Part shown: positions 34,173 to 61,573 of the stretch, in pieces
Numbering within the stretch: the stretch's first letter is position 1
Layout of the letters: each line of letters opens with the position of its first letter
NCBI GenBank assembly: GCA_039768565.1
Contig: JBDNAG010000065.1
Span: 1,977-65,976 of the forward strand
Reading direction: 5' to 3'
DNA: 64,000 nt
Origin: Akkermansiaceae bacterium
Lineage (GTDB): Bacteria > Verrucomicrobiota > Verrucomicrobiia > Verrucomicrobiales > Akkermansiaceae
Translations under genes and position numbers: made by a program
Notes under the pieces: model-generated
What the model saw: only the letters and a program-made list of their open reading frames with translations
What the model was told of the DNA's origin: nothing
Databases searched by the model: none

Positions 34173-34973
34173 TCAATACCCACCACCAAAAGTTCCGCTT
34201 TGATACCTTTTGCGGTAGGCTCCGGGAGTCAGTCCGGTCTCCCTTTTAAAAAGCCGCCCAAATTGTCCCTGATCATAAAAACCACACTCGAGCGCTACAT
34301 CTCCAAGCCTCCCCCTCCCCCGCGTCAGAATCGTTCGGGCAGCATTGACCCGGGAGCGCAAAACAAATTGCATCGGAGCAATGCCGAACAACTTCCGAAA
34401 GCGGCGGTTCAACTGACTGACCGACAAGTCCACAAGCGCCGCCAATTCCTCCGCACTGATGGGTTCCGCAAAGTTCTCAAGAACATACTCTACCACCGGA
34501 GCAAGCCCCTCATAACTCTCCTTCAATTGCCCTGCGCTCTCCAAGGGTCTCATCACTCCAGCCAGACCGACAACCACTCCAGCGTGCCCCAACAATGGAA
34601 TCTTCGTCGAGACGAACCAGCGTTGCGCCCCCAAATAGTCATAGACCAACCAGATCTGCTCCGGAATCGGCTCTCCCCCCTCCATGACCCGCCTATCCTC
34701 TTCGCGATAGGCCGAAGCCATCTGGGGCGGATGGATATCAAAATCTGTTTTGCCAATCATCTCATCCGGATCCTCAAAACCATTTCTCCGAGCAGAGGCC
34801 AGATTCACCATCATAAATTCCCCCTCCCCATTTTTCAGGTAAAGGTGGGCATCCGGCAGCCAATCAAACAGTCCCAGAACCTGTGCCACCGATCCCAAAC
34901 CTTCCAAAAACTTTTCCTGCACACCCTTCACCGTCATGCGCGGATGATACAAAACCTTCAAAACTTCATCCAA
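34173..34973 (-). CDS. AraC-family transcriptional regulator with an N-terminal PAS-like sensor domain
   Basis: C-terminal HTH_AraC (LSVSQLNRRFRKLFG..., GFYDQGQFGRLFKRETGLTPGAYRK). The N-terminal 150 aa are PAS-like. It is divergent from the PSCyt gene, 47 bp away. Confidence 0.8.
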   Translation of the reverse strand: MDEVLKVLYHPRMTVKGVQEKFLEGLGSVAQVLGLFDWLPDAHLYLKNGEGEFMMVNLASARRNGFEDPDEMIGKTDFDIHPPQMASAYREEDRRVMEGGEPIPEQIWLVYDYLGAQRWFVSTKIPLLGHAGVVVGLAGVMRPLESAGQLKESYEGLAPVVEYVLENFAEPISAEELAALVDLSVSQLNRRFRKLFGIAPMQFVLRSRVNAARTILTRGRGRLGDVALECGFYDQGQFGRLFKRETGLTPGAYRKRYQSGTFGGGY

Positions 34974-35020
34974 GACAAAACAGCTTTGGGTCGATAGCTT
35001 ATCAAAACTCTCTTCTTTTC

Positions 35021-38000
35021 ATGCCACGCGCTTTCCTTCTCATCATTCTCGCTCTGCCTTCCCTCACCCAGGCAGCCGGGACAATTAGCTACAACCGGGA
35101 CATCCGCCCCATTCTCTCGAACAACTGCTTCTTCTGTCATGGATTTGACGAGAAGAAGCGCGAAGCTGACCTGCGACTCGATACCTTTGAAGGAGCAACC
35201 GAGTTCAATGCTATCGTTCCCGGTAAGCCCGAAAAGTCGGAACTGATCAAACGCATCTTCACCAAAGATGCAGATGATCACATGCCTCCGGTCGATACCG
35301 TTTACCGCCTCACTCAAAAGGAGAAGGAAATCCTGCGCCTTTGGATCAAGCAAGGAGCCTATTACGAAGATCACTGGGCCTTCCAAAAACTGACCCGCCC
35401 CAAGATCCCCGGCAATGATACGAACCCGATCGATTCATTTCTCAAACGCACCTGGAATGAGAAAGGAGTTGAGCCTGTCAACAAAGCTTCCCCACGCGTC
35501 CTGCTACGGAGACTTTCTTACGACCTTCGAGGTATCCCGCCCAGCTACGAAGAAGTCACGGTATTCCAAAAAGATCCCTCTCAGAAAAACTATCTCAGCT
35601 TCGTTGATCGCTGGACACAGTCACTCGAGCACGCCGAACATCAAGCCATACGCTGGCTCGATCTCGTCCGCCACGCCGACTCCAATGGCATGGTTTCCGA
35701 TGAACCCATTGCAACTGGCCCCTTCCGAAAATACGTCATTGAAGCTTTCCGGAAAAACATGGGCTTTGATCAGTTTACCCGTGAACAACTCGCAGGTGAT
35801 CTCCTTCCTGACCGGAACGATCGCACTCTGACCGCCTCCGCTTACAACCGACTCGTTAAAACCAACTGCGAGGCCGGCGTCATCGAAAAAGAAGCTCTCT
35901 ACGCGCTAAAGGGCGAACACGTTCGAGCACTTGGCACGGTCTGGCTCGGCCTGACTACCGGATGCGCCGAGTGCCACGATCACAAATATGATCCCATCCT
36001 CGCAAAGGATTACTACTCCCTCGCGGCCTTCTTTGATCCACTCATCGAAGCCGGCGTCTACGAACCCGGAGACCGAAGAGTTCCACTTCACTACATCCAC
36101 GAAGAGGCCGCCAAATCTTCAATAGAAAACGAGCTAACCACCCGAATCGACACCATCCGGAAGGAACTTTACTCCGCTCCCATCGAGCCGAATTCTTTAA
36201 AAAACTGGTCCGACGAAGTACTCAAACAAGAAGTAGAAGCCAAAGGCACCAAAGCGAAGGTCGATTGGATTTGGTTTCCGGCCACTCTCCCAGTGGCACA
36301 TATTACAAGAGGCGACTTCACTCAAAATGAAACCGGTCGTGAAATTATTGCGGGATCCGGCGAAATCAAGCAACACATGTGCGTCGAAACCTTGGCATCG
36401 TCGGACTTTGGCAACAGCGAGGAATACTTCACGCACGTTACCATTGATCCTGAAAACAAGCCTGACTTTGTCGCTTTCCAAATCATCAACGGCGCCTATC
36501 GCCGTATGGGCTGGCACGACAGTTACTTCCGCACATTCTACTGGGGCCCCAAAGATCACCCTACTGCCAAGAAAGCCTTTCCAACCAAGCTCACACACAT
36601 GGGCCCGCTACCCAAATCCGGCGAAGTCATTCGTCTCGTGGTTCCCAAAAGCAAGCTGGGAAAAGCAGCATACGTTCCCCAAGGGATGGCTTGGATTCAA
36701 CAAGGAGGAAAAGTCACCTGGGGTGGTTCCGGATACCAAACCACCGCCCATCGTTTCTTCACCAACGAAATGGCCGAATCAACGTTCCGCTACTTCTGGG
36801 AACTACCGTTCAACCGCGACGACCGTAAAGATTTCCCAACTCTCCTCCTCACATCCCTTAAAAAGTCACCTTCCTCCCGGCGAGCCATTCACCAAACCGT
36901 CATCGAGATGGCCTTTCGTGAATACCAAAATCCGAAACTCACGGCTCAACTCCACGAACTTTACCGTCAAATATACCTTCACCGTCAGGGAGCTACTGAA
37001 ACCCTCGTCAGCAAGGAAGGCCCTCCCAAGAAAACCCACGTTCTCAAACGTGGCAACTTTATGGACGAATCCGGTCCGGTCGCCACACCAGCCATCCCCG
37101 AAATTTTCGGGAAACTCGAATCAGTAAATCCCACCCGCCTCGACCTCGCCAATTGGATTGTCTCAAAAAACAATCCACTCACCGCCCGAGTCTTCGTCAA
37201 TCGGCTCTGGCATCAGTATTTTGGCCGGGGCCTAAGCGAGACCCTGGAAGACTCCGGGAACCAAGGCGATTGGCCGTCCCACGTCGAACTCCTCGATTGG
37301 ATGGCCGCCGAATTCCAGGAAGACTGGGATATTCGTAAAATGACCCGCCGTCTCGTCAGCTCCAAAGCCTACCAACTTTCGTCGATCCCCGGTTCTCTTC
37401 TCGCTCAAAACGATCCCACCAACCGTCTCCACGCCAGACAATCAAGGCACCGGCTTTCCGCCGAGCAAATCCGCGACTCGGCCCTCCTCACTGCAAACCT
37501 CCTTAAGCTTACCGATGAAATTCCGAGCGACTCCTTCTTCCCCTACCAGCCAAAAAGCTATTGGGAAAAGTCGAACAAGGTCATGTTTGGTTCCCGGTAT
37601 CAAATTTGGGAAACAAACGCAGGGCCGGAGCAATACCAACGCTCACTTTACACCTTCTGGAAGAGACAAAACCATCATCCTGCGCTCCTCGCCCTCGATG
37701 CACCCACCCGACAGGAATGCACCGCCCGGCGAGCCATCACCAATACCCCCGCCCAAGCTCTCGCATTACTCAATGATCCTCAGTTTGTGGAAGCAGCCCG
37801 TTGTCTGGCCACCCGGGTGATCAATCACGAAAAACCTATCGAGAAACTCTATCACCTCGCTCTCCAACGCAAACCGTCTAACAAAGAATCCGAAGAAATT
37901 AAAGCACTCCACAAAAAGCTCCTCGCCGAATTCAAAGCCAATCCAGAGGCCGCCAAATCTCTTCTCTCTATCGGACAATCCTCTTCGGGAGACCATGATC

Positions 38001-38074
38001 CGATCAGCCATGCCGCTTGGACCGCCACAGCACGCATCGTCCTCAACCTCCACGAATTTCTCACCCGAAGTTAA
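35021..38074 (+). CDS. PSCyt1/PSCyt2(DUF1549)/PSD1(DUF1553) multidomain protein with a CxxCH heme motif
   Basis: Signal peptide MPRAFLLIILALPSLTQA, CFFCHG heme-c motif, DUF1549 hallmark GCAECHDHKYDPI, and a DUF1553-type C-terminus. The ATG is at 35021. Confidence 0.85.
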   Translation: MPRAFLLIILALPSLTQAAGTISYNRDIRPILSNNCFFCHGFDEKKREADLRLDTFEGATEFNAIVPGKPEKSELIKRIFTKDADDHMPPVDTVYRLTQKEKEILRLWIKQGAYYEDHWAFQKLTRPKIPGNDTNPIDSFLKRTWNEKGVEPVNKASPRVLLRRLSYDLRGIPPSYEEVTVFQKDPSQKNYLSFVDRWTQSLEHAEHQAIRWLDLVRHADSNGMVSDEPIATGPFRKYVIEAFRKNMGFDQFTREQLAGDLLPDRNDRTLTASAYNRLVKTNCEAGVIEKEALYALKGEHVRALGTVWLGLTTGCAECHDHKYDPILAKDYYSLAAFFDPLIEAGVYEPGDRRVPLHYIHEEAAKSSIENELTTRIDTIRKELYSAPIEPNSLKNWSDEVLKQEVEAKGTKAKVDWIWFPATLPVAHITRGDFTQNETGREIIAGSGEIKQHMCVETLASSDFGNSEEYFTHVTIDPENKPDFVAFQIINGAYRRMGWHDSYFRTFYWGPKDHPTAKKAFPTKLTHMGPLPKSGEVIRLVVPKSKLGKAAYVPQGMAWIQQGGKVTWGGSGYQTTAHRFFTNEMAESTFRYFWELPFNRDDRKDFPTLLLTSLKKSPSSRRAIHQTVIEMAFREYQNPKLTAQLHELYRQIYLHRQGATETLVSKEGPPKKTHVLKRGNFMDESGPVATPAIPEIFGKLESVNPTRLDLANWIVSKNNPLTARVFVNRLWHQYFGRGLSETLEDSGNQGDWPSHVELLDWMAAEFQEDWDIRKMTRRLVSSKAYQLSSIPGSLLAQNDPTNRLHARQSRHRLSAEQIRDSALLTANLLKLTDEIPSDSFFPYQPKSYWEKSNKVMFGSRYQIWETNAGPEQYQRSLYTFWKRQNHHPALLALDAPTRQECTARRAITNTPAQALALLNDPQFVEAARCLATRVINHEKPIEKLYHLALQRKPSNKESEEIKALHKKLLAEFKANPEAAKSLLSIGQSSSGDHDPISHAAWTATARIVLNLHEFLTRS

Positions 38075-38077
38075 GCC

Positions 38078-39442
38078 ATGACCATTCCACGCCGCGACTT
38101 TTTTGCCCGTTCCTCGACTGCCCTTCTTGGCACAGCTTTTGCCGATCTCCTCGCAAAGGACGGCATGGGTGAAGTCCTTCATCACGCTCCCAAAGCCAAG
38201 CAGGTCATCTACCTTTACATGGCTGGCGGCCCTTCTCAATTCGAGTCCTTCGACGACAAACCGAAGCTTCGCGAACTCAACGGAAAGCCCATCCCCGAGT
38301 CTTTGACCAAGGGAATCAAATTTGCCTTTCTCCAGCACTCGGCACTGAAGTGCTTTGGCACCGATGTAGGATTCACCCGGTGCGGAAAATCAGGCCAAAT
38401 GATTTCCAACCTACTCCCGAATATTCAGAAAATCGCGGATGACATTTGTATCATTCGCACCCAACAAACGGACCAGGTGAACCACGACCCTGCCCACGCC
38501 TTTATGAATACCGGCACAGCCATCGCCGGACGGCCAAGCATGGGATCATGGGTGACATATGGACTTGGCCACCTTGCCAACGACCTCCCTTCATTTGTCG
38601 TGATGCGATCCGGTCCGGAAGGCCAACCTGTTCCACAAACCGCCTGGAACTCCGGATTCCTTCCCGGCAAACATACCGGTGTGGAGTTCTATTCTTCCGG
38701 CACACCCCTGAATTATCTCAAATCACCGGCCGGAGTCAGCAACACCACCCAAAGGGCTTCCCTGGACTCACTCAGAAAGCTCAATCAACTTCACGACACC
38801 AATGTCGCAGATCCCGAAATCGCGACCCGGATTTCGCAGTATGAACTCGCCTTCAAAATGCAATCCAGTGTTCCGAATTTGGCCGACTTCAGCTCTGAAT
38901 CAACTGAAACGCGGAAACTTTACGGCGTAAGTGATAAGCCTGACGGATCCTTCGCTTCGAACTGCCTTATGGCCCGCCGCATGGCCGAGCGCGGAGTTCG
39001 CTTTGTCCAACTCTACCACACCGGGTGGGATCATCACGGCAACGTTGTCGGAGGCATGAAATCTCGCTGCAAGGATATCGACCAAGGCGCAGCCGTGCTC
39101 ATCAGCGATCTCAAAAAACGTGGAATGCTCGATGACACTCTTGTCATCTGGGGCGGAGAATTTGGTCGCACCCCGATGTCACAGGGCAGCGGCAGGGATC
39201 ACCACACCAAGTCCGGTTCCATGTTTATGGCTGGCGGCGGCATCCAGGGCGGGATCACTTATGGCGAAACCGATCCCTTCGGCTTCACTGCTGCCGTCGA
39301 CCCCTTCCATGTTCACGACTTCCACGCAACCGCACTTCATTTACTGGGGGTTGATCACAAGCGACTCACCTATAAATACAAGGGCCGCAACTTCCGCCTT
39401 ACCGACGTCCATGGCGAAGTCGTCAGGAAAATTCTCGCCTAA
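38078..39442 (+). CDS. DUF1501 sulfatase-fold protein with a Tat signal
   Basis: Twin-arginine signal MTIPRRDFFARSSTALLG. GGEFGRTP and GRDHH motifs of DUF1501. Starts 3 nt after the PSCyt gene. Confidence 0.85.
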   Translation: MTIPRRDFFARSSTALLGTAFADLLAKDGMGEVLHHAPKAKQVIYLYMAGGPSQFESFDDKPKLRELNGKPIPESLTKGIKFAFLQHSALKCFGTDVGFTRCGKSGQMISNLLPNIQKIADDICIIRTQQTDQVNHDPAHAFMNTGTAIAGRPSMGSWVTYGLGHLANDLPSFVVMRSGPEGQPVPQTAWNSGFLPGKHTGVEFYSSGTPLNYLKSPAGVSNTTQRASLDSLRKLNQLHDTNVADPEIATRISQYELAFKMQSSVPNLADFSSESTETRKLYGVSDKPDGSFASNCLMARRMAERGVRFVQLYHTGWDHHGNVVGGMKSRCKDIDQGAAVLISDLKKRGMLDDTLVIWGGEFGRTPMSQGSGRDHHTKSGSMFMAGGGIQGGITYGETDPFGFTAAVDPFHVHDFHATALHLLGVDHKRLTYKYKGRNFRLTDVHGEVVRKILA

Positions 39443-40477: not shown

Positions 40478-41356
40478 TCATTTTATTCGATCAATTATTT
40501 CGAGCCCAACCCTCGGAGCATAAATCACCCCCTTCGAGCCCAAGCCATTGACCATCCACCCTTTGCCCTCTTGAAATCGCACTACCGGCTTACTGCGATC
40601 GACAATAGGCCGAATTCCAGCAACGTGATCGATCACTTCATAGTCTCGATCAGTAAAGGTTTGCAAAATAGCTTCCACCTTTCCCCGCCCCTCTCCTGTT
40701 GGCCCGGATTCCAATTGGTCCCAATCATAAGTGGCTCCAACTCGATAAAGCTCTTTGCCAAGGGGAATGACCCACCCAGCTCGATTCAAAATTCGTCTCT
40801 CTTCCCATCCCGGTATCCGAACGGTGAGAACCTCTCCTTTCGCGCTACGATGTTCGACTTCAGGAAAGTCACCCCGAATGAGCCCAGCTGCTCCAGCGCA
40901 CCAAATCTGAGAGCCTCCCAGCGGGGTATTTTGCCACTCTCCCCCGTTCTTTAAAAACTCCTCGCGGGCCACCTGCAAAAACCTTGGACAATCCAACCAT
41001 CCTCCTCCACTCCAAAGAACACCCTCATTAGTAACTTCGACGACCCACGGATGCACAAGCCCACGCTTGCGTTCAAACTTTGCCCGATCTTTCTCATCAA
41101 ACCATAGCCGCATAATCGGCACGGAATGAAACAGACAGTCACCGAGGCTTTGATAAAACGGGAGGGCAATTTTCCAGGACGCAGCAACTTCCCAACTCGG
41201 TTCGAAATTCCGGCCTGCAACCGGATTGACCAGACCCGCCGCCACATGAGAGCTCCCCTCACGCCCGTCGTCGATGACCCGAACCTCAATTCCGGCACGC
41301 TGGAGTTGCAAGGCCACACAAGCTCCCGCAAGCCCAAACCCGATGACCTCCACCAT
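40478..41356 (-). CDS. FAD-dependent oxidoreductase (DAO family, short form)
   Basis: N-terminal dinucleotide fold MVEVIGFGLAGACVALQL...VRVID and a C-terminal GLGSKGV motif. Confidence 0.65.
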   Translation of the reverse strand: MVEVIGFGLAGACVALQLQRAGIEVRVIDDGREGSSHVAAGLVNPVAGRNFEPSWEVAASWKIALPFYQSLGDCLFHSVPIMRLWFDEKDRAKFERKRGLVHPWVVEVTNEGVLWSGGGWLDCPRFLQVAREEFLKNGGEWQNTPLGGSQIWCAGAAGLIRGDFPEVEHRSAKGEVLTVRIPGWEERRILNRAGWVIPLGKELYRVGATYDWDQLESGPTGEGRGKVEAILQTFTDRDYEVIDHVAGIRPIVDRSKPVVRFQEGKGWMVNGLGSKGVIYAPRVGLEIIDRIK

Positions 41357-41362
41357 GCCCGT

Positions 41363-41812
41363 TTAAAGTTGGGTGTTCAGAGCTGCGATTACTCCGCGAG
41401 CTTTTTTCCTAGCCGATTCAAGATCTTCCGCACGCCCCAAACCAACTGCCATGCGACGGATGCCTTCCCGATTCATCGTAAGCTGAGTGGCTCGAGCGGT
41501 CGGAGTAATGGTAACGAGGCCTTCAGCCTCAATCTCCGCCAGCGTGCCGGTGGCAATCGCTTCGACTTCCGGAACAACAAGATCCGGCTTTTCCTCCTCG
41601 ATGATCCGACGAAGCGACTCCCCATCCAACATCGAAAAAACATGGCTTCGGTCTGCCACCTGCATCGCTGGAGCATTCGCATAGGCGTCGCAAGCGATTA
41701 CCTCCACGCCGTAGCGTTGGAGTTCAATCACAACTTCCTTGCCCAGCTCTCCCGAGCCGCAAAGGAGGACTTTTTTTGCCATTTTTGTGAAAGGAGTTCC
41801 AATCGTTGACAT
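41363..41812 (-). pseudogene. purT: purT remnant: N-terminal 115 aa joined in frame to the last 30 aa (ATP-grasp core deleted)
   Basis: [45 protein letters not shown]...[15 protein letters not shown] is collinear with the E. coli PurT N-terminus. It then continues [25 protein letters not shown], which resembles the PurT C-terminus [25 protein letters not shown] (from memory). Total about 150 aa against about 390. Confidence 0.6.
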
Positions 41813-41875
41813 GGCGACAGTCAAAACCACCGGACTTAATCTGAAAAGCGGGAACCGCCATGGAAATCGCAGAAA

Positions 41876-43549
41876 TCACTCTTCCACAGAGTAACACCCC
41901 AGCACCGCACTCACCATGGCCTGACCACTTGTAACCTCGTCGTGGAAAATGTGGTGCACTCCACCCTTCTGGAGCAATTCGACCCCATTGGAAAACTTCG
42001 CTCGCGCAAATGTCACAATTTCAGGGTTAATATTCCGCGCCGCACGAATGCCCTCGAGAGCCAGCTTTGACTCCGGGAAAGTAAACGCCAGAGCCCGTGC
42101 CTCCTTGATCCGGGCAAGCTCCATGGTCTGGGAATTGGTGGCATCAGCAAAAAGCACCTGCACCCCGCGTTTATGAAGATCCCGCACAGTCGCAGCGTTC
42201 ATCTCAATCACGACAACCGGAACTGAAAGCCGGTTCATCTCTTCGTGCAGGGCCTGACCCACCGGACCATAGCCACAAATGACGACGTGATCACGAAGAA
42301 CACCGACTTGCGCGCCGTCCCTGAGTTCAGCGCTCCGTTCGCGGCTCTGAAAAAGAGGCCACTTCTCGAGCTTCCTGGAAAACGGCATTGAACTCCTCAT
42401 CAAAGTTGGCACCAAGGCCATCGAAATCGCAGTGCTTGCCAAAAGAACCTGTCCAATTTCGGCCGAAAGTCCGCCCAGTTCAGCCGCCCGATTCAAGAGC
42501 ACCAGCGAAAACTCCCCGCTACTCGAAAGCGCGGCCCCAGCGATCAGAGCTTGTCGCAAACGAAGGCCCATCCGCTTTGCGATGGCAGCGACAATCGCGC
42601 CCTTGATTAATAGAACCCCCAACACCCCAAGACCGATCACCCAAGCCGAATCCCACACGGCGTTGAGATCGATCAGCAAGCCCACCGAGACAAAGAAAAC
42701 GGTCAAAAACAGGTCCTTAAATGGAAGCACATCAGCCAAAACCTTGTGCGAATAGATCGACTCACTCACCACCAAGCCACCAGCAAATGCCCCCAGTGCA
42801 AGGCTCAAGCCAAACCAATTGGCACCCCAGGCGATGATCGCACAAAGTCCCACCACCGTTACCGTAAAGAGCTCCCGGCTTCGCGAAGTCGCCACGGCAT
42901 GAAGGAGATGCGGGACGACATAAAGGCTTAGGAACCAGCACAAACCTAGAAATAAAACGCCCTTCCCCAGTGCAAAGAAAACCGGGCCCATACCATCAGC
43001 GCCATCGCCAACCAATGACGGTAGGACTACCATAAAGAAGATGACCGCGAGATCTTGAAAAATTGCCACACCCAGCGCCATGCGAGATCCCGGCGAGTCT
43101 GGCTGACCCATGTCCTGAAAAGACTTGATGCTCACTGCGGTCGACGACAAGGCCATCGCAAATCCCACCACCAAAAGCACAGGCCCCGTGAGGCCAAAGC
43201 TCCAGCCCACTGCCATTCCCACCACCGTGGTTAAAAACATCTGCGCTCCGCCGCCACCGATTACTATTTTTTTGAGATGCATCAGCTCGCGAAGTGAAAA
43301 CTCAATACCCAGAGTAAACATCAAAAGAACCACCCCAAGCTCTGAAAGAATAGAGATCGCGTCATCCGCAGAATCCCCAAGCCACCCAGTGGCTCCGGTA
43401 TTAGCAAGGACCACACCACAAATAAAATATCCCACCAGCAAAGACTGCCGCGCCTTAACCAAAAGGAGCGAAACAGCAATCACACTCCCCAGAACCATCC
43501 CCAACAGAGCAACCACCGGGGCGACGTGATCAGCAGCAGCGATTATCAT
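41876..43549 (-). CDS. Kef-type monovalent cation:proton antiporter (CPA2) with a C-terminal RCK/TrkA-N domain
   Basis: About 12 TM helices followed by VVICGYGPVGQAL, a Rossmann RCK domain. Confidence 0.85.
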   Translation of the reverse strand: MIIAAADHVAPVVALLGMVLGSVIAVSLLLVKARQSLLVGYFICGVVLANTGATGWLGDSADDAISILSELGVVLLMFTLGIEFSLRELMHLKKIVIGGGGAQMFLTTVVGMAVGWSFGLTGPVLLVVGFAMALSSTAVSIKSFQDMGQPDSPGSRMALGVAIFQDLAVIFFMVVLPSLVGDGADGMGPVFFALGKGVLFLGLCWFLSLYVVPHLLHAVATSRSRELFTVTVVGLCAIIAWGANWFGLSLALGAFAGGLVVSESIYSHKVLADVLPFKDLFLTVFFVSVGLLIDLNAVWDSAWVIGLGVLGVLLIKGAIVAAIAKRMGLRLRQALIAGAALSSSGEFSLVLLNRAAELGGLSAEIGQVLLASTAISMALVPTLMRSSMPFSRKLEKWPLFQSRERSAELRDGAQVGVLRDHVVICGYGPVGQALHEEMNRLSVPVVVIEMNAATVRDLHKRGVQVLFADATNSQTMELARIKEARALAFTFPESKLALEGIRAARNINPEIVTFARAKFSNGVELLQKGGVHHIFHDEVTSGQAMVSAVLGCYSVEE

Positions 43550-43650
43550 CTGCCCGCCATACTAGGGAGATATGCCTTCTTTCCAAGCGCCAGCGAAAGA
43601 AAACCGAGGGCTTGCCCTCAGCCAAAGAAATTCTATGGTTTTGAAAAGCG

Positions 43651-44325
43651 ATGAAACTTCTTCTCACTCTATCTCTCGGCCTAGCCTCCTTCGCCGGGGC
43701 ATTCACGATTCCAAAAGGAACGCACAATCTCGCTCAACTCGATGAAGTGCAAAAAAAAGCAACCAAGGCAAAGCAGCCCATCGCCTTTGTGATCGCAGAG
43801 AAAAAAATGGCCGCAACATGAGTGGATTGCCCGGGAGCCGTCAGTGTGTCGGCCAGCAAAGCAGTGCTCGGATTTTCAAAAAGCATTATTGTCGATGTCT
43901 CTGAAACCGCAGGTCTTCCTGAACTGATAAAGAATGCCTACCGCACGGGAGGCGCCTCCATTCCCATCGTGATCTTCACAGATCCGGGAGTGACCAAAAT
44001 TTTCGGTAGATACGATCACCCCGCAATGAAGACCCAGAAATATGGAACAGTCTTCAAGCCTGCCCGCGATGGCGTGGCTAAAGCAAAAAAAGAAGGCACA
44101 TTTGCCGACGGCGGAAAACCCGCAGTTATCACCAAAGTCGAAGGCGGTAAATTGGAGAGCTGGAAGAGCTCTGCAGGAACTGAAATCAAAGCCAAACTGG
44201 TCGGCATTGAGGACGATAAGATCTATCTTTTCGTCACTGAAGCCGGAAAATCAATCCGCGCCACCGCTGCCCAGCTCGATAAAACCAGCGTCGCGCGAGC
44301 TCGCAAGCAGGCCGGCTTAAAGTAG
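43651..44325 (+). CDS. Secreted thioredoxin-fold protein with a C-terminal SHD1 domain and an in-frame TGA (codon 57, 43819-43821) at the first position of the CxxC motif: candidate selenoprotein
   Basis: The ATG at 43651 opens 56 sense codons: MKLLLTLSLGLASFAGA (signal peptide) ...KQPIAFVIAEKKMAAT. TGA follows, then VDCPGAVS... in the same frame (the listed ORF 43822-44325). This gives T-U-V-D-C where Trx-fold homologs carry W-C-x-x-C after the beta1 strand. The C-terminus WKSSAGTEIKAKLVGIEDDKIYLF...LDKTSV is SHD1-like. Confidence 0.65.
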
Positions 44326-45037: not shown

Positions 45038-48000
45038 CTACTTCACGGTCATGACGCCGCGCATGAGAACCGCGTGCCCCGGGAAAGTGCAGATAAAGTT
45101 GTATTCACCGGGCTCAGCAGGAGCATTAAATTCAAGAATCTCGGTCTGCCCCTTCTCCAACAACTTGGTCGCGTGAAGAATGCTGTCGGACTCAGGCAGG
45201 AATTGCTTCTTGAAGCCATCGGCACCGAGAGCAATCGCAGCCGCCGCAACAGCGTCAGCAGTTCCAGGTTTGGTAATCACGAGGTTGTGAGGCATGAAGT
45301 CAGGATTCACAAAAGTAAGCTTCACTTTCTTTCCTGCCTTTAATTCAACCTTCTTCACGTCGAATTGAATCTTCTCAACAATCGCATTCACGCGAATTTC
45401 GGTCAAAGAGGGAGCGTCTTTGACACCTCCGGGGATGACTTTCATCTCCTCTTCTTTCTCTATTTCCTGCGGTCCTTTAGCTGGATCGGCAGGCCCCCAC
45501 CAATGTTGAACCACCTTGGCTCCCTGAACGACATGCGGGTCAGTCGACTTAAGGACAAGATCGAGAAGGTCGGTGTTACGCACATTGTGCTGCTGATGAA
45601 CCCAGAGAGCTTCCAGCATGGGAATACCATCCTCTTTCTTAACTGGATCAAACTGCTTCACCCAAGCTTGGGTGGCTTTGGCCACCTCTGCGGTGTCGCG
45701 CTCACTGATCTCCACCCGGGTGCGGTGGCGGACATACATGTCGGGATGTTTGAAGTTATCCAGCAACTCGGTCATAGAAGCCCCATCGATTTTAACGGGC
45801 TTCTGAAGCGGCTTCTTGGTATTCACCATCCGGTAGATCCGACCGTGAACCTTGTCACGATTTGGGTCGCGCACGTTGTGCTGCATGTGCCCGATGATAA
45901 CGTTGTGCCAATCGGCAACATAAAGAGCACCATCTGCGCCGAAGATTGCATCGGTCGGGCGAAAATTCCCGTCATCGCTGCGAAGAAGTTCGACTGCCGG
46001 AGTGCCCCAGACTTCTCCAAGCTTGTATTTCTTGTCCTCGAAGCCATCACGATGAAGATCGTAGTGCTTGAGTCCCAAATAGCCGATGGTGTTACAGAGA
46101 AGGAAGTTTTGCTGCATTTCATCCGGGAAGTTGGTTCCAGAAATGATCGCGTCGGCAGCCACCGGTCGAACCTCCTTGTTCACAAGAGGAAACATCTTAA
46201 AGCCGTCCCCATTGGGGCGAACCTGATAGGAGCGCCCTCCGGTGCCATCGTTGGCGTAAAGGTAGCCCCACTGATCAAAGCTGGTCCCATGTGGATTCGG
46301 GCTATTGCCAGCTACTAATGAAACAGTGTAGCGGCGTGGATCAAATCGATACATAGCAGATGAACCGGCCGTGAGTGAAGGTCCCCATGGTGTCTCGTGG
46401 TTGTGCTGAAGGAAAACTCCGCTCTGCCAGTAAATGCCGCCATCAGGCCCAAAAATGAGATTATTCGCCGCGTGGTGGGTATCAGACGATCCTATACCCT
46501 GCATAATGACATAACGGACATCAGCAACGTCGTCGCCGTCGGTATCCTTGAGGAAGATGATGTCCGGCTGACTGGTGACGATCACACCACCATTCCAAAA
46601 TTCAAAACCAAGTGGATTATGAACCTTGGCGAATTCCTTCACCTTGTCAGCCTTACCGTCGTTATCGGTGTCTTCAAGAATTAGCAAAGAATCGTTCATC
46701 TCCTTAAGCGGCTCCCACTTCGGATAAGTAGCCCAAGCGGCAGCCCAGAGGCGACCTTTGCCATCCACCTGAAGCTGAACCGGATTCGCAAGCTCCGGGA
46801 ACATCTCCTCATCAGCAAAAAGATTCACTTCGAAGCCATCGGGGACATGTATCTTCTTGATCCCATCTTCTCCGCTAAGATACTTAAGGTTCCCTTCCTT
46901 CGCTTTGCTTGAGCTGCGGGAGCCACCACCAACGTTAGAAATCACCGGAATCGCCTTTGGAGTATTAGCGTCATTTACCGAGTAGTCCTTGCCCTGCGCC
47001 TTTGCCCAGATGAGTGGATCACGATTAGCGGTCATGACATCAAGCATTTTAAGCTCGTGCTGAAGAACGACAGCGTTGGTCTGATCATCGACAAATTTCA
47101 GTCCGGAACGTCCGCCCCAAACATCATTTCCATCGGTCGCACGGTAGCGATTATGCCAGTGCCAGTTCTTGTCGAGAACAGCTTCGCGAAGCGGCTGCTG
47201 GCTTGGGGAAGCGGCAATCTCCTTTTTCAAAAGAGCCTTAGCCAAAACTTCACCGATGAGACGATTGCCATCCTCATTCAAGTGAATCCCATTCAGCGTC
47301 AACGGAGACTTGGCCGTCCCATAAAGCTTGATCGAGGGGTGGAAGAGATCGATGAAAGCAACTCCATTCTTATCTGCGGCTACTCGGGTCGCCTCTGTGA
47401 TAGCGAGAAGGCGCTCGTTATTGGCTCGACCCGTCGGAAGATTCCGATCTCTCAAATTTTCGTGCCCGATTGGACTACAAAGAACAATGCGGGGAAAGCT
47501 CTCACCATTCGGCATCGCCTTACGAAATTCCGCGATCATTTTGGTGAGGTTTTGTTCATGGTCTTCGGGCTTGGTGTCGAAAGACTCATTGTAACCAAAC
47601 ATGGCGATAACTACGTCAGCTCCTACCTGCTGGAGATACTTTGGCATCGCAGTAAAGCCACGCGAACGAGGATACTTGTTCGGACGATCTCCGGTGAGGC
47701 TCATATTGCGGAACTTCAACTCCATCCCGGGAGCTGCAGACTGGATTAAAGTCTCTGTCCATCCATCATGCTGCATGCGGTCAGCAAGGCCATTTCCAAT
47801 AATGGCGACGGTATCGCCTTTCTGAAATCTAAAGGGAGCAGGATCCCGGTAATCGGCTGGCACGCTGACCGTCTTGGCAACCTTTCCGTCGGCACCGATA
47901 TAGGCAACATCGCCGCCCTTCTTCAGATCAAAGATCACTGCCGTCTCGGGCGCAGAAACATCCTTGTTTTGAAAGACCGACTTTTTCTTCGAATCAAGGA

Positions 48001-48397
48001 GAGTCAGCGTGAAGCCATCGAGGCGCTGCCCCAGATCACCCTCAACACGATTCCAAACCGAGATCGAATCAATTTTGGCTGACCTTCCGAGGTCAAGCTC
48101 CCACCAGGCATTTTTTTTGCCCTCCGAAGTGTGGGTTTGGCCACCCGAATTAAAGTCAGGCTTTTTATTACCGTCGATGGCACGTTCAGCACCCGCGTTA
48201 TTCGAGGTGGTCGATTGGCTGGCTTTTCCAGAGCGGGCGATATTTTTGCCGCCTGCCATCACCTCGACTTCAGCGAGGGTCAACGTGCGGCCTCTGCCGG
48301 GCAGCTCAATCCGGACAAAGCGAGCCTCCTTTTGGGCGGAGGCCACGGTATTTAGGGCGAGTAATGGAAGAAGAAACTTCATAGATCGGACTGCCAC
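45038..48397 (-). CDS. Secreted multidomain protein: discoidin (F5/8 type C), SGNH hydrolase, PVC-type dehydrogenase beta-propeller, HEAT region and C-terminal cupredoxin (azurin-like)
   Basis: Signal peptide. AIDGN...WWELDLG discoidin motif. A GDSL/SGNH-like block ([19 protein letters not shown]). [19 protein letters not shown] and [17 protein letters not shown] are typical of the putative membrane-bound dehydrogenase domain. The C-terminal [11 protein letters not shown]...[21 protein letters not shown] carries type-1 copper ligands His, Cys, His and Met. Confidence 0.8.
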
Positions 48398-49341: not shown

Positions 49342-50817
49342 ATGCACGATCCTTTCTCCCAATCCCAGCTCCTCGTCAACCGACGCCACTTCTTCGGAAA
49401 GTCCGCCTCCGGCATCGGTGTCGCCGCACTTGCCTCCATGCTGGGCGATAACCTAGGAGCCAGCACCCCTGCCAAGCCCGAGCCAAAGGCCAAGCGCATG
49501 ATCTATCTCTTCCAATCCGGCGCTCCCTCCCCCCAAGACCTCTTCGACTACAAACCAAAACTTCAGGAACACCACGGCAAGGAACTCGGAGACTTCGTCG
49601 ACCTCAACCAGCGAAAAACCGGGATGACCGCGGGCCAAAAATCCTTCCCCATTGCCGGAACCAAATACAAATTCAAAAAACACGGCAAGGCCGGCACCGA
49701 AATCTCCGAACTCCTCCCCCATATCTCCGGCGTCGCTGACGACATCTGTCTCATCAAATCGATGTACACCGAGGCCATCAATCACGACCCCGCCATTACC
49801 TTTTTCCAATCCGGGTCGCAAATCCCCGGGCGCCCCTCCATGGGAGCCTGGCTCAGCTACGGCCTCGGGTCAGAAAACAAAAACCTCCCGGACTTCGTCT
49901 CTATGGTTTCCCGTGGCACCGGGCGCCCCAATTGCCAACCCCTTTACGACCGACTTTGGGGGTCGGGCTTTCTCCCGACCAAACACGCCGGCGTCAAATT
50001 CATGTCCGTCGGCGACCCCGTCCTCTACCTGTCCAACCCCGCCGGCTACTCCGCCTCGGCCCGACGCAAGATGCTCGATGATCTCGCTGAGCTCAACGAA
50101 AAGAAGCTCGCCGAATTCTCCGACCCCGAAATCGACACCCGCATCCAGCAATACGAACTCGCCTATCGCATGCAGACCTCGGTCCCCGAGCTCACCGACA
50201 TCTCGGATGAGCCCGAATCGGTTCTCAACATGTATGGTCCCGAGGTCAAAAAACGCGGCACCTACGCATACAACTGCCTCATGGCGCGCCGTCTTGCCGA
50301 GCGCGACGTTCGCTTCATACAACTTTACCACATGGGTTGGGATCAACACTTCACCCTCCCTAAACAAATTTCCGGCCAGTGCTACGATGCCGACCAACCC
50401 ACCGCCGCTCTCATCAAGGACCTCAAAATGCGAGGACTCCTCGATGACACCCTCGTCGTCTGGGGAGGAGAATTTGGACGAACCTCATACTGTCAGGGCA
50501 AACTCACTCGCGAAAACTACGGCCGCGATCACCACCCTCGTTGTTTCTCTCTCTGGGCCGCTGGCGGCGGCATCAAACCTGGCACTACCTTCGGCCAAAC
50601 CGACGATTTCTGCTATAACCTCGTCGATAAAAACGGAGCACCCATTGAAGCCCACCCCACCAAGCATCACAAGGAGGCCGTCCACGTCCACGACCTCCAC
50701 GCCACCCTCCTCCACCAACTTGGCATTGATCATACCAAGCTCACCTACAAATTCCAGGGCCGCCAATACCGACTCACCGATGTGCACGGACACGTCGTCA
50801 AAAACATTCTATCTTAA
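49342..50817 (+). CDS. DUF1501 sulfatase-fold protein with a Tat signal (second copy)
   Basis: RRHFFGKSASGIGVAALASML twin-arginine signal and GGEFGRT/GRDHH motifs. Collinear with 38078-39442. Confidence 0.85.
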   Translation: MHDPFSQSQLLVNRRHFFGKSASGIGVAALASMLGDNLGASTPAKPEPKAKRMIYLFQSGAPSPQDLFDYKPKLQEHHGKELGDFVDLNQRKTGMTAGQKSFPIAGTKYKFKKHGKAGTEISELLPHISGVADDICLIKSMYTEAINHDPAITFFQSGSQIPGRPSMGAWLSYGLGSENKNLPDFVSMVSRGTGRPNCQPLYDRLWGSGFLPTKHAGVKFMSVGDPVLYLSNPAGYSASARRKMLDDLAELNEKKLAEFSDPEIDTRIQQYELAYRMQTSVPELTDISDEPESVLNMYGPEVKKRGTYAYNCLMARRLAERDVRFIQLYHMGWDQHFTLPKQISGQCYDADQPTAALIKDLKMRGLLDDTLVVWGGEFGRTSYCQGKLTRENYGRDHHPRCFSLWAAGGGIKPGTTFGQTDDFCYNLVDKNGAPIEAHPTKHHKEAVHVHDLHATLLHQLGIDHTKLTYKFQGRQYRLTDVHGHVVKNILS

Positions 50818-50859
50818 CCGCACGCCATCACAACACCACTCAACCTCGGCGATCACCTC

Positions 50860-60205: not shown

Positions 60206-61546
60206 CTACTTTGGGTTATTCCTCGAAGATGCTCCCGGTCCCCAACGGGGATCCTCCAATTGTTTCTCCCATGCATCGAGTTTCTTCATCATCGTCAAAA
60301 GCACTTCCCTTTGCTCTTTCGCAAGATCTTTTGACTCCCCAATATCCTGACTCAAATCGAAAAGTGCAGGTTCCTCTCCGGTCTTTCGGTTATGAACAAT
60401 CTTCCACTTCCCTTCTCTCATGGCGCGGGGCCCGCCACTTCCACCCTGTCTCCAAAACAATGGTCTGGGCTTTTCGATCACCGTCCTGGTTTTTGGAAAT
60501 CCACCCAGTTTCGAAAAAAAACTTACCCCATCTAGATTCCATTCCCCATTCACTTTCCCTCCGACGGCCTCGACAAAAGTTGGCAGCAGATCGAGCGCAA
60601 TGACCGGTTGGTCAATGACGCTTCCAGCCGGGATCCTACCCTTCCACCGCATTACCCAAGGAACTCTTACTCCGCCTTCCCACAGAGTTCCCTTCTTTCC
60701 TTGAAGAGGGGAATTATCGGCCCCCGTCGAAGTCTGACCACCATTATCATTGGTAAACAAAACGATCGTATTTTCATCAAGACCTTCGTCCTTCAAGCAA
60801 TCTAAAACTTTACCTACATTATCATCCAGGCTCACAACCAGCCCCGCATATCCGGCCCTTCTCTTTTGAGCGATATGCGCCACTCTTTTTGCATCCTCCG
60901 GCTTTGGCTGAAGAGGCCCGTGAGGCGAAGTGAAGGAGACAAAGAGAAAGAATGGCTTCTCCTTCTTCTCCCGGATAAAGCGACAAGCAGCATCACCAAA
61001 ACGATCCGTAACGTAGCCCTCTTCCTTGGTAATTTCACCATTCTCTTGAATCACTCGGTGAGCACTTGCCTTCGGCATCTCATAGTAGGGTCGTGATCCC
61101 TGCAGCAGGCCATAGAACCAATCAAACCCCCGTCTATTGGGATGATACTGCTCCGGATAGCCCAAGTGCCACTTACCGATCAACCCCGTGATATAACCGA
61201 GTTCCTTTAGATATTTCACTCCAAAGTTCTCTTTCAACTCCAGACCGCTTTGAAAACCGGGAGGCAAATTATTGTCGTAGCCAAATCTCTGTTGATAACG
61301 CCCTGTCATCAATCCAGCGCGCGACGGAGAGCACACCGATCCAGCCATATAAGCATTTGTAAACCTCGCTCCCTCATTAGCGATAAGGTCGATGTTCGGA
61401 GTCAATTTTTTCATGTCCGCAGCACAATTCGGCTGAAAACCAAAGTCCGCATAACCCGCATCATCAGAGTAAAGAACAACGATGTTTGGCTTGGCAGAAA
61501 CCACAGACGCTGCAGCAAAAAGAAATAGAACGCTTTGAAAACCCAT
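60206..61546 (-). CDS. Secreted arylsulfatase (formylglycine-dependent sulfatase family)
   Basis: Signal peptide MGFQSVLFLFAAASVVSA, VVLYSDDAGY, the C-x-P-x-R motif SVCSPSRAGLMTGR, and GKWHLG. The alternative GTG start is at 61567. Confidence 0.9.
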   Translation of the reverse strand: MGFQSVLFLFAAASVVSAKPNIVVLYSDDAGYADFGFQPNCAADMKKLTPNIDLIANEGARFTNAYMAGSVCSPSRAGLMTGRYQQRFGYDNNLPPGFQSGLELKENFGVKYLKELGYITGLIGKWHLGYPEQYHPNRRGFDWFYGLLQGSRPYYEMPKASAHRVIQENGEITKEEGYVTDRFGDAACRFIREKKEKPFFLFVSFTSPHGPLQPKPEDAKRVAHIAQKRRAGYAGLVVSLDDNVGKVLDCLKDEGLDENTIVLFTNDNGGQTSTGADNSPLQGKKGTLWEGGVRVPWVMRWKGRIPAGSVIDQPVIALDLLPTFVEAVGGKVNGEWNLDGVSFFSKLGGFPKTRTVIEKPRPLFWRQGGSGGPRAMREGKWKIVHNRKTGEEPALFDLSQDIGESKDLAKEQREVLLTMMKKLDAWEKQLEDPRWGPGASSRNNPK

Positions 61547-61573
61547 CCGCCTAAGATGGCGGTCCACAAGGAA

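What the first reader, a model, noticed from the sequence alone, without database searches (positions are those of the whole stretch)
43651..44325. Secreted thioredoxin-fold/SHD1 protein with TGA in place of the first Cys of CxxC (U-V-D-C): candidate selenoprotein
Seen in the sequence: an ATG at 43651 opens a 56-codon frame encoding a clean signal peptide and a beta1-like strand (PIAFVIAE). A single TGA follows at 43819-43821, and the same frame then continues for 167 more codons beginning VDCPGA. The TGA therefore falls where thioredoxin-fold proteins carry the nucleophilic Cys of CxxC, giving UxxC. UxxC is the classic signature of bacterial thiol-oxidoreductase-like selenoproteins (established knowledge). 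Without read-through, the downstream ORF has no signal peptide and only half a redox motif, and the upstream 56-codon ORF is an orphan leader. Downstream RNA can form a two-tier structure: outer AUUGC/GCAGU (43826-30 / 43861-65), inner GCCG/CGGC (43837-40 / 43850-53), and a 9-nt loop UCAGUGUGU at +23 to +31. This is only a weak SECIS candidate. I do not recall a Sec-containing Trx module fused to an SHD1 domain being described.
Basis: partly seen in the sequence, partly recalled or inferred. Interest (0 to 1): 0.72.

Follow-up and report, generated by a model that had tools for sequence, protein, structure and literature searches.

The report
Unannotated secreted selenoprotein of marine Verrucomicrobia
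This is almost certainly a real gene for a secreted, thioredoxin-like protein in which a conserved "stop" codon (TGA) is read as selenocysteine; it belongs to a large family from marine Verrucomicrobia that nearly all database records retrieved cut in half at that codon, and no curated family model describes it.

Summary
ATG 43651 to TAG 44325 is one 224-codon gene with an in-frame TGA at 43819-43821. All 42 relatives whose DNA I read (25-99% protein identity to the window) have TGA at the same codon, while their terminal stop varies. The 56 upstream codons (signal peptide, helix, strand beta1) evolve as coding sequence. Starting 15 nt after the TGA is a 17-nt hairpin, 43837-43853, with loop A-G-U-N-U. 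Its synonymous sites are frozen (6 of 8 codons versus 0 of 97 elsewhere, p = 1.7e-8). It covaries in distant members and is absent from the one Cys-form gene read. It meets the published bacterial SECIS criteria in 42/42 sequences (41/42 for the energy criterion). Nine rare relatives carry C-x-x-C, which profile-profile alignment places on U-x-x-C. Models of relatives show a thioredoxin fold plus a C-terminal SHD1 domain. No Pfam model (at its threshold) or NCBIfam model covers the family. 141 database proteins start at or after the Sec position. Two points remain open: no selA/B/C/D genes lie in the window, and the genome could not be searched. It is a new family of a well-known kind.

The parts
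43651..44325 (+). Complete selenoprotein coding sequence: 224 codons including Sec57, with terminal TAG at 44323-44325
   Evidence: Full-length frame with the same architecture in 42 relatives.
43651..43701 (+). Predicted Sec-type signal peptide MKLLLTLSLGLASFAGA, with cleavage predicted after A-G-A before F18. Read from the sequence; not run through a predictor.
   Evidence: Mean hydropathy of residues 3-17 is +1.86, against -0.38 for residues 19-56. The M-K-hydrophobic-AGAF-x-IPKG pattern is conserved in homologs.
43720..44100 (+). Thioredoxin-fold domain, about residues 24-150: a0, b1 (I44-A49), U57-x-x-C60, a1, b2, a2, cis-Pro P105, b3, b4, a3. Boundaries inferred by alignment to modelled relatives.
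   Evidence: AlphaFold models of relatives P0154 and P0137. Foldseek hits to AGR2, AGR3, ERp19 and thioredoxins. Weak Pfam Thioredoxin_9 match, E = 0.0033.
43819..43821 (+). TGA read as selenocysteine (U57)
   Evidence: TGA in 42/42 homologous genes, while terminal stops vary among TAA, TAG and TGA. Aligns with the first Cys of CxxC in Cys forms.
43828..43830 (+). TGC, Cys60, the resolving partner in the U-V-D-C motif
   Evidence: Cys in all 35 close relatives, encoded by both TGC and TGT. Aligns with the second Cys of CxxC.
43837..43853 (+). SECIS upper hairpin GCCGUCA-GUG-UGUCGGC. The loop A-G-U-G-U is at 43843-47, with invariant G43844 and U43845.
   Evidence: Two pairs show changes on both sides; pair 21-33 is CG 24, UA 3, UG 1 and never broken. 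The hairpin is absent from the Cys-form gene L042.
43827..43864 (+). Whole SECIS element including the lower stem UUGC (43827-30) / GCAG (43861-64)
   Evidence: Lower helix is 92% paired across 28 sequences, with U-G/C-G and C-G/U-G alternations. It is less certain than the upper stem.
43837..43863 (+). Zone of frozen synonymous sites, codons 63-71 of the gene (GCC GTC AGT GTG TCG GCC AGC AAA GCA)
   Evidence: 6 of 8 codons that are at least 4-fold degenerate use a single codon in all 35 sequences, against 0 of 97 elsewhere. Fisher p = 1.7e-8.
43963..43965 (+). CCC, Pro105, the presumed cis-proline of the thioredoxin fold, preceding b3
   Evidence: An invariant column in every family-wide alignment. 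It sits just before strand b3 in both models.
44143..44322 (+). C-terminal SHD1-like (SH3-like) domain, about residues 165-224
   Evidence: Pfam SHD1 passes its gathering score in relative P0154 and hits 14 of 39 members at E<=1. Foldseek matches Sla1 SHD1 2hbp with TM 0.77 and rmsd 1.3 A. The family profile hits 2hbp at E = 0.0016.

Best explanation
Window 43651-44325 is a single gene for an exported selenoprotein.

Translation starts at ATG 43651. When the ribosome reaches UGA 43819, the hairpin at 43837-43853 acts as a bacterial SECIS element. Its apical loop A-G-U-G-U begins 21 nt after the UGA (22 nt counting the 3-nt loop G-U-G). The hairpin recruits SelB carrying Sec-tRNA(Sec), so selenocysteine is inserted instead of terminating. 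Translation then continues to TAG 44323.

The 17-residue signal peptide sends the protein across the inner membrane. The mature protein, about 207 residues, has two domains. The first is a thioredoxin-fold domain with the redox centre U57-V-D-C60 at the beta1/alpha1 junction. That centre cycles between selenol/thiol and selenenylsulfide, opposite the invariant cis-Pro105. The second is a C-terminal SHD1 (SH3-like) domain, which probably docks the enzyme on a partner or substrate.

Shown here: the conserved TGA, coding selection on both flanks, the conserved and covarying hairpin that fits the bSECIS model, the Sec/Cys correspondence, and both folds (modelled on relatives).

Inferred: actual Sec insertion, export, redox chemistry, and the role of SHD1. 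The substrate is unknown.
For: TGA at the same codon in 42/42 homologous genes spanning about 25-99% protein identity, while terminal stops vary.

The upstream 56 codons show abundant synonymous change with conserved amino acids.

The codons between the TGA and the hairpin (Cys, Pro, Gly) vary synonymously, so that stretch is translated in this frame.

The codon after the TGA is often not a start codon: GTC, GTA, GAG, AAA, GCC, CCA, GCG, GGG.

Synonymous sites are frozen over 43837-43863, 6/8 versus 0/97, p = 1.7e-8.

Hairpin covariation: 2 pairs with changes on both sides, 0 of 500 shuffles reach the covariation score, and slid registers pair at 26-50% against 86%.

All published bSECIS criteria (PMC13188914, read) are met in 42/42 sequences, 41/42 for MFE.

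The Cys-form gene uses TGT and lacks the hairpin.

hhalign with U masked aligns U and C with the two Cys of CxxC, probability 99.9-100%.

Thioredoxin fold and SHD1 are supported.

TGA is an ordinary stop in 11 of 38 large ORFs of the window.
Against: No selA, selB or selD was found among the 30 larger ORFs of the window that were scanned. No tRNA-Sec was found in the window or in 34 related loci. The rest of the genome could not be searched, so the organism's ability to decode Sec is unverified.

The hairpin is not unusually stable compared with shuffled sequence (z = 0.63).

Within the close family the hairpin is invariant, so covariation rests on seven distant sequences.

MAFFT, and an AlphaFold model built on the MAFFT alignment, place U three residues before the canonical nucleophile position.

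Confidence: 0.88

Rival explanations
1. The UGA is read through without selenocysteine. The conserved hairpin stimulates near-cognate insertion of Trp, Cys or Arg, or some other programmed read-through. The protein would be full length but contain no selenium.
For: Sec machinery was not found in the window or in the related loci. Conservation of the TGA, its flanks and the hairpin would also be expected under this model.
Against: The TGA aligns with the catalytic Cys of a CxxC motif in Cys-form relatives, which is the classic Sec/Cys signature. The hairpin fits the SelB-type bSECIS model in loop sequence and spacing in 42/42 sequences. In other bacterial selenoprotein families Sec likewise occupies a redox-active Cys position (PMC13188914). 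Trp or Arg at that position would destroy a redox motif that is otherwise strictly conserved.
Confidence: 0.06
2. These are two separate products: a 56-residue secreted peptide ending at TGA, and an independent 159-167 residue protein that starts at the GTG after the TGA or at GTG 43846. This is how public annotation treats the locus.
For: All database gene calls start after the TGA. GTG follows the TGA in the window. The GTG/TTG at codon 66 of the gene (43846-43848; alignment column 69) is fairly conserved, with GTG in 30 of 35 sequences and TTG or CTG in the rest.
Against: The codon after the TGA is not a start codon in many relatives: GTC, GTA, GAG, AAA, GCC, CCA, GCG, GGG. The Cys-Pro-Gly codons between the TGA and codon 66 of the gene are under amino-acid selection with synonymous variation. 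The downstream product alone would lack the signal peptide, strand beta1 and half of the redox motif of a thioredoxin fold. Cys-form relatives are single uninterrupted ORFs with the same architecture.
Confidence: 0.03
3. The TGA is a sequencing error, a recent nonsense mutation (pseudogene), or a sign of genome-wide UGA reassignment.
For: UGA-to-Trp reassignment has been reported in some Verrucomicrobiota (abstract of PMC13462651, listed). Two database relatives were called with Trp at this codon.
Against: The same TGA appears in 42 independent assemblies. TGA ends 11 of 38 large ORFs in the window, and 89% of the window is covered by ORFs of at least 100 aa read with the standard bacterial code (table 11). 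No other credible TGA-split gene exists in the window. The two Trp calls are artefacts of gene calling on short contigs, since the DNA has TGA.
Confidence: 0.01

Closest known systems
Thioredoxin-fold UxxC selenoproteins of bacteria: Sec-containing Trx, Grx, DsbA-like, DsbG-like, thiol:disulfide interchange protein, and GOS 'Trx-like 1-3' and GOS_C (PMC13188914 Table 1; PMC2398784 Table 2)
   Same: Thioredoxin fold. UxxC at the beta1/alpha1 junction, with U in the nucleophile position. The bSECIS lies immediately downstream inside the coding sequence. A thiol/selenol oxidoreductase role is presumed. Several of these families, such as DsbA-like and DsbG-like, are also exported.
   Different: No sequence-model membership. 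NCBIfam gives no hit even at E<=1, including NF045500 (GOS_C), NF041057 (DsbG-like), NF047660 and NF040730. Pfam gives only a sub-threshold Thioredoxin_9 match. The family carries a C-terminal SHD1 domain. Sec forms outnumber Cys forms about 15 to 1 among the proteins retrieved, whereas most families have many more Cys homologs. I could not exclude identity with GOS 'Trx-like 3' or the GOS 'Unknown' family, but the family's signature peptides are absent from the supplementary text held for that paper.
AGR2 / AGR3 / ERp19 (TXNDC12)-type thioredoxin-fold proteins, and Pfam Thioredoxin_9
   Same: These are the best structural matches for the N-terminal domain of the modelled Cys-form relative (Foldseek E = 1.7e-4 to 6e-4). 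They are secreted or luminal single thioredoxin domains with a CxxC or CxxS motif.
   Different: Only 14-19% identity. They are eukaryotic ER proteins without Sec and without SHD1. The resemblance is at the level of fold only.
SHD1 domain (Pfam PF03983; yeast Sla1 structure 2hbp)
   Same: The C-terminal roughly 60 residues of the family adopt the same small SH3-like barrel (TM 0.77, rmsd 1.3 A, 26% identity for P0154). The profile hits 2hbp at E = 0.0016. Pfam SHD1 is at or above threshold in several relatives.
   Different: The window protein itself does not reach any Pfam SHD1 score. In yeast, SHD1 binds an NPFxD endocytic signal (my background knowledge). The bacterial ligand is unknown, and I found no report of an SHD1 fused to a Sec-containing thioredoxin module.
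Bacterial SECIS elements (consensus model of Zhang and Gladyshev, as summarised in PMC13188914 Fig. 2)
   Same: A 3-5 nt apical loop with the pattern N1-G-U-N-N2 and N1-N2 paired. A 6-7 bp upper stem. 21-22 nt between the UGA and the loop. MFE at or below -7.5 kcal/mol.
   Different: Nothing essential differs. The window-type hairpin has a conserved U.U mismatch, which becomes U-A or U-G in distant members. Rfam returned no SECIS-type match for this region even at E <= 10.

Membership tests
Bacterial selenoprotein gene (Sec-UGA plus bSECIS) | In-frame UGA conserved among orthologs, with conserved coding sequence on both sides | tested here: met
   TGA in 42/42 genes. Flanks are conserved at amino-acid level with synonymous variation.
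Bacterial selenoprotein gene (Sec-UGA plus bSECIS) | Downstream stem-loop fitting the bSECIS model: 3-9 nt loop, 4-16 bp stem, G in the first two loop positions, 16-37 nt spacing, MFE <= -7.5 kcal/mol (PMC13188914) | tested here: met
   Loop A-G-U-N-U in 42/42. At least 5 of 7 stem pairs in 42/42. Spacing 21-22 nt. MFE criterion met in 41/42. Covariation and frozen synonymous sites support it.
Bacterial selenoprotein gene (Sec-UGA plus bSECIS) | Homologs with Cys aligned to the Sec position (Sec/Cys pair) | tested here: met
   Nine CxxC forms exist. hhalign in three modes, with U masked, puts U on the first Cys. hmmalign is mostly in register. Caveat: MAFFT, and an AlphaFold model built on the MAFFT alignment, give a register shifted by 3 residues.
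Bacterial selenoprotein gene (Sec-UGA plus bSECIS) | Sec-decoding machinery (selA, selB, selC/tRNA-Sec, selD) in the same genome | not testable with these tools
   None in the 64-kb window or in the flanks of 34 related loci.
Bacterial selenoprotein gene (Sec-UGA plus bSECIS) | Selenium physically present in the protein (75Se labelling or mass spectrometry) | not testable with these tools
   This needs an experiment.
Thioredoxin-fold thiol-disulfide oxidoreductase | beta-alpha-beta-alpha-beta-beta-alpha fold | tested here: met
   AlphaFold models of relatives P0154 (pLDDT 84) and P0137 (pLDDT 87). Foldseek hits to thioredoxins, AGR2 and ERp19. The window protein itself was not modelled.
Thioredoxin-fold thiol-disulfide oxidoreductase | Two redox residues spaced x-x at the N-terminus of helix alpha1, and a conserved cis-Pro before beta3 | tested here: met
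   U57-x-x-C60 follows beta1. In P0154, Cys59 is at the N-cap of alpha1. Pro105 is invariant family-wide.
Thioredoxin-fold thiol-disulfide oxidoreductase | Score above the Pfam gathering threshold for a thioredoxin family model | tested here: not met
   Thioredoxin_9 scores 17.8 bits against a cut-off of 25, E = 0.0033. Only 4 of 39 members hit it at E<=1.
SHD1 domain (PF03983) | Score above the Pfam gathering threshold | tested here: not met
   No SHD1 hit for the window protein at E<=1. Relatives do pass: P0154 scores 24.0 against 23.7; 14 of 39 members hit at E<=1; PF03983 is precomputed for P0202, P0203, P0206 and P0207.
SHD1 domain (PF03983) | Structural match to the solved Sla1 SHD1 domain | tested here: met
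   Model of relative P0154 against 2hbp: TM 0.77, rmsd 1.3 A over 57 columns. Family profile against the 2hbp sequence: E = 0.0016.
Curated prokaryotic selenoprotein families with NCBIfam models (e.g. GOS_C NF045500, DsbG-like NF041057, HUIPC-motif NF047660, SaoT NF040730, VPGUxxT NF041383) | Match to the family's NCBIfam HMM | tested here: not met
   No relevant NCBIfam hit at E<=1 for the read-through window protein or five relatives.

The most novel reading that the evidence does not exclude
This is a Sec-dependent exported redox system specific to marine Verrucomicrobiota. Sec forms outnumber Cys forms by about 15 to 1, which may be why pipelines that rely on Cys homologs (PMC12013277) have not reported it. 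The selenol oxidoreductase is tethered by an SHD1 peptide-binding domain to a specific envelope partner. One distant member has even moved to a U-x-x-U diselenide motif (L038). If so, selenium availability would directly shape envelope redox biology in an abundant group of marine polysaccharide degraders.
Probability: 0.3. Interest if true: 0.6.

Novelty: new member of a known kind. Interest (0 to 1): 0.5.

Why it matters
In the proteins retrieved from public databases, 141 entries of this family start at or after the Sec codon, and NCBI names the ones it holds simply 'hypothetical protein'. Recognising the Sec codon restores a signal peptide, the central beta strand and the catalytic residue. 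That converts two meaningless fragments into one interpretable exported redox enzyme.

It adds a family to the prokaryotic selenoproteome and extends documented Sec use to marine Akkermansiaceae and Verrucomicrobiaceae, which I did not find covered in the literature searched.

It also supplies a well-conserved SECIS with natural covariation that could seed an annotation model.

The scarcity of Cys homologs illustrates a blind spot of discovery methods based on Cys/Sec pairs.

Tried and rejected
(1) Rfam: nothing relevant at gathering threshold, nor at E<=10 over 43780-43920.

(2) Thermodynamic test: the 66-nt segment is no more stable than shuffles (z = 0.63). Stability alone is therefore not evidence; conservation and covariation are.

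(3) Covariation within the 35 close relatives: none, because the hairpin is invariant. Seven distant sequences were needed.

Relatives were modelled instead.

(5) Profile search against PDB sequences: the top hits were designed 'Cake' propeller repeats. This is a repeat artefact on the SHD1 region and did not help with the thioredoxin register.

(6) Second profile search of the protein database for more Cys forms: no new ones.

(7) Search of the window for other TGA-split genes or further copies of the hairpin core: only this gene. The motif count was at chance level, 2 found against 1.34 expected.

(8) Search for Sec machinery in the window and in locus flanks: none.

(9) Literature and supplementary searches for the family's signature peptides in the GOS and Sargasso Sea selenoproteome papers: none found.

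(10) The shifted-register reading, with U three residues upstream of the canonical Cys, was considered seriously. It was then downgraded after hhalign and hmmalign, and because distant Sec forms read U-P-T-C, parallel to C-P-L-C in the Cys forms.

(11) Promoter and terminator scan: nothing convincing for the + strand.
Full report
OBSERVATION. ATG 43651 follows an in-frame stop at 43645 and opens 56 codons: MKLLLTLSLGLASFAGAFTIPKGTHNLAQLDEVQKKATKAKQPIAFVIAEKKMAAT. TGA lies at 43819-43821. The same frame then runs 167 codons (VDCPGAVSVSASK...) to TAG 44323-44325. The gene stands alone on the + strand between minus-strand genes.

IS THE TGA CONSERVED? A search of about 5.8 billion proteins with the read-through sequence (U written as C) found 83 relatives, named Akkermansiaceae or Verrucomicrobiaceae where a source gave a name. 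All are 125-170 aa and cover at most 75% of the query, so all were called downstream of the TGA. None is full length.

I fetched 34 genomic loci from species-representative genomes and read through the junction. In all 34, plus the window, the codon is TGA. The terminal stop varies among TAA, TAG and TGA. The upstream frame is open back to a conserved M-K-signal peptide-AGAF-x-IPKG...KQPIAFVIA...AT segment.

An exhaustive profile search of 1.84 billion representatives reached relatives at about 25-45% identity. I fetched DNA for seven of them. All seven have TGA at the aligned codon, and each is preceded by a 57-60 codon 'orphan' ORF, or by a gene call that wrote Trp for the TGA. That makes 42 of 42.

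BOTH SIDES ARE TRANSLATED. Codon-by-codon analysis of 35 sequences shows conserved amino acids with free synonymous variation, both upstream of the TGA and in the Cys-Pro-Gly codons just after it. Pairwise counts agree: for example, 17 synonymous against 3 non-synonymous codon differences upstream between the window and L001. The codon following the TGA is GTG in the window but GTC, GTA, GAG, AAA, GCC, CCA, GCG or GGG elsewhere. Re-initiation at that codon therefore cannot explain the family.

TGA is not reassigned in this genome. It terminates 11 of 38 large ORFs, and 89% of the window is covered by ORFs of at least 100 aa read with the standard bacterial code, table 11. No other credible TGA-split gene exists in the window.

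THE RNA ELEMENT. Codons 63-71 of the gene (43837-43863) are frozen at synonymous sites. Six of eight codons that are at least 4-fold degenerate use one codon in all 35 sequences, against 0 of 97 elsewhere (Fisher p = 1.7e-8).

The consensus fold is a hairpin GCCG-U-CA / GUG / UG-U-CGGC at 43837-43853, above a lower stem UUGC/GCAG at 43827-30/43861-64. Within the close family the hairpin is invariant, so no covariation can be measured there.

Adding the seven distant genes gives two pairs with changes on both sides. Pair 21-33 is C-G in 24, U-A in 3 and U-G in 1, and is never broken. These two columns are the third positions of codons 63 and 67 of the gene. Pair 19-35 shows G-C to A-U changes. 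The U.U mismatch becomes U-A or U-G. No shuffle out of 500 reaches the observed covariation score, and slid registers pair at only 26-50% against 86%.

The published bacterial SECIS model requires a 3-9 nt loop, a 4-16 bp stem, a G in the first two loop positions (pattern N1-G-[G|U]-N-N2 with N1-N2 paired), 16-37 nt between the UGA and the loop, and MFE at or below -7.5 kcal/mol (PMC13188914, read). The loop A-G-U-N-U, the stem and the 21-22 nt spacing are met in 42/42 sequences, and the energy criterion in 41/42.

As a negative control, the one Cys-form gene read at DNA level uses TGT and forms only 3-4 of 7 pairs in any nearby register. The element is not unusually stable compared with shuffles (z = 0.63), and Rfam returned no SECIS-type match for the region.

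THE PROTEIN. Pfam gives only a sub-threshold Thioredoxin_9 hit for the window protein. NCBIfam, which holds models for most curated selenoprotein families, gives no relevant hit at E<=1 for it or for five relatives.

Full-length relatives exist but are rare. Nine are Cys forms with [ST]-C-[PG]-[LH]-C (P0154, P0166, P0169, P0202-P0207). Two are redox-dead forms (P0139, P0189). Two are Sec forms whose TGA was called as Trp. Against these stand 141 N-truncated calls among the 207 proteins held.

AlphaFold models of the Cys form P0154 (pLDDT 84) and the Sec form P0137 (pLDDT 87) show a0-b1-a1-b2-a2-b3-b4-a3 followed by a five-strand SH3-like domain and a helix. Foldseek matches the N-domain to AGR2, AGR3, ERp19 and thioredoxins, and the C-domain to Sla1 SHD1 (2hbp; TM 0.77, rmsd 1.3 A). 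Pfam SHD1 passes its threshold in P0154 and hits 14 of 39 members at E<=1. The family profile hits 2hbp at E = 0.0016. Pro105, just before b3, is invariant family-wide, as expected for the cis-proline of the thioredoxin fold.

REGISTER OF U. MAFFT aligned the Cys of U-x-x-C with the first Cys of C-P-H-C. The P0137 model, built on that alignment with Trp at the U position, starts helix a1 after that Cys. This would put U three residues upstream of the canonical nucleophile.

However, hhalign with U masked as X, in global, local and Viterbi modes, aligns U with the first Cys and C with the second (probability 99.9-100%). In hmmalign, 5 of 9 Cys forms aligned to the Sec HMM are in register, as are all three distant Sec forms aligned to the Cys HMM. 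Several distant Sec forms read U-P-T-C or U-P-D-C, parallel to C-P-L-C and C-P-H-C. The shift appears only where the C-P-G of the Akkermansiaceae clade attracts the C-P of the Cys forms.

CONTEXT. The window is typical of the Planctomycetes-Verrucomicrobia group. It has two PSCyt1/PSCyt2/PSD1 plus DUF1501 gene pairs, sulfatases, MutS, a MurC-MurB fusion and SRP RNA. A Kef-type Na/H exchanger with a TrkA_N domain is the divergent upstream neighbour in 21 of 34 loci, and a DUF7133/cupredoxin protein lies downstream in about 15. This looks like vertical synteny rather than an informative operon.

No selA, selB, selD or tRNA-Sec is present in the window or in the locus flanks. The rest of the genome could not be searched. 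This is the main open point. Sec machinery is documented in the sister phylum Planctomycetes (PMC4807772).

MECHANISM. The most likely course is SelB/SECIS-directed Sec insertion at UGA 43819, followed by export via the signal peptide. The signal peptide has a hydrophobic core with mean hydropathy +1.86 and an A-G-A/F cleavage motif. The exported protein would be a selenol/thiol oxidoreductase whose U57-x-x-C60 centre cycles through a selenenylsulfide, with the SHD1 domain serving as a docking module. Sec insertion, export, chemistry and partner are all inferred.

The rivals are non-Sec read-through, two separate products, and error or reassignment. Together I give them about 10%.

NOVELTY. 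UxxC thioredoxin-fold selenoproteins with an in-frame SECIS are a well-known kind; dozens of families are listed in PMC13188914 and PMC2398784. This family matches none of their models. Its signature peptides are absent from the supplementary text held for the GOS and Sargasso Sea papers. No paper found mentions an SHD1-linked or Verrucomicrobial selenoprotein family.

The scarcity and remoteness of Cys homologs may explain why it has not been reported: deep-Sep states that it may miss selenoproteins lacking Cys homologs (PMC12013277).

My verdict is a new member of a known kind. The case is solid but mechanistically unsurprising, so interest is about 0.5.

Noticed in passing
L038:689-700 (JGI 3300002038 contig; gene of P0092): A distant family member has two in-frame TGAs three codons apart, giving U-G-T-U. 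This is a possible diselenide-type UxxU motif, followed by the same hairpin. The second UGA lies only about 5 nt from the stem, which is unusually close for SECIS-directed decoding. It is seen on a single contig, so an error cannot be excluded.
   Followed up: partly
L035:257 and L036:684 (proteins P0119 and P0137): Public protein records for these short Logan contigs show Trp where the DNA has TGA. The contigs were evidently gene-called with a code in which TGA means Trp. By accident this produced the only full-length database entries for Sec forms of this family.
   Followed up: yes
Proteins P0139 and P0189 (no window coordinates): Two full-length relatives keep the signal peptide, the thioredoxin fold and SHD1 but have neither Sec nor Cys at the motif (D-D-D-T and S-S-K-S-S-S-S). 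They look like redox-inactive paralogs, perhaps binding or chaperone-like proteins.
   Followed up: no
window 41363-43549, minus strand: The TGA stop (41876-41878) of the Kef-type exchanger gene is followed in the same frame by 170 open codons. These contain the 155-aa ORF with a preATP-grasp domain (41363-41830). There is no redox motif at this TGA, so it is probably a coincidence of frame. The preATP-grasp ORF also looks like a lone N-terminal fragment, sitting directly upstream of a DAO-family oxidoreductase gene (40478-41356).
   Followed up: partly
window 41876-43549 (-) and loci L001-L033: A Na_H_Exchanger plus TrkA_N (Kef-like) gene is the divergently transcribed neighbour of the selenoprotein gene in 21 of 34 related loci, separated by about 100 nt. 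This could mean shared regulation, or simply conserved synteny.
   Followed up: partly
window 34883-39442 and 49342-53832: There are two gene pairs of PSCyt1-PSCyt2-PSD1 (DUF1549/DUF1553) with DUF1501. Sulfatase genes lie at 19720-21903 and 60206-61567. This is a typical signature of the Planctomycetes-Verrucomicrobia group.
   Followed up: no
window 45038-48397, minus strand: A large 1119-aa secreted protein combines F5/8-type C, GDSL lipase, DUF7133 and a C-terminal cupredoxin (plastocyanin/azurin-like) domain. It lies downstream of the selenoprotein gene in about 15 related loci.
   Followed up: no
window 61666-63966, minus strand: A single ORF carries both Mur ligase (MurC-like) and MurB (FAD_binding_4 plus MurB_C) domains, which suggests a MurC-MurB fusion.
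   Followed up: no
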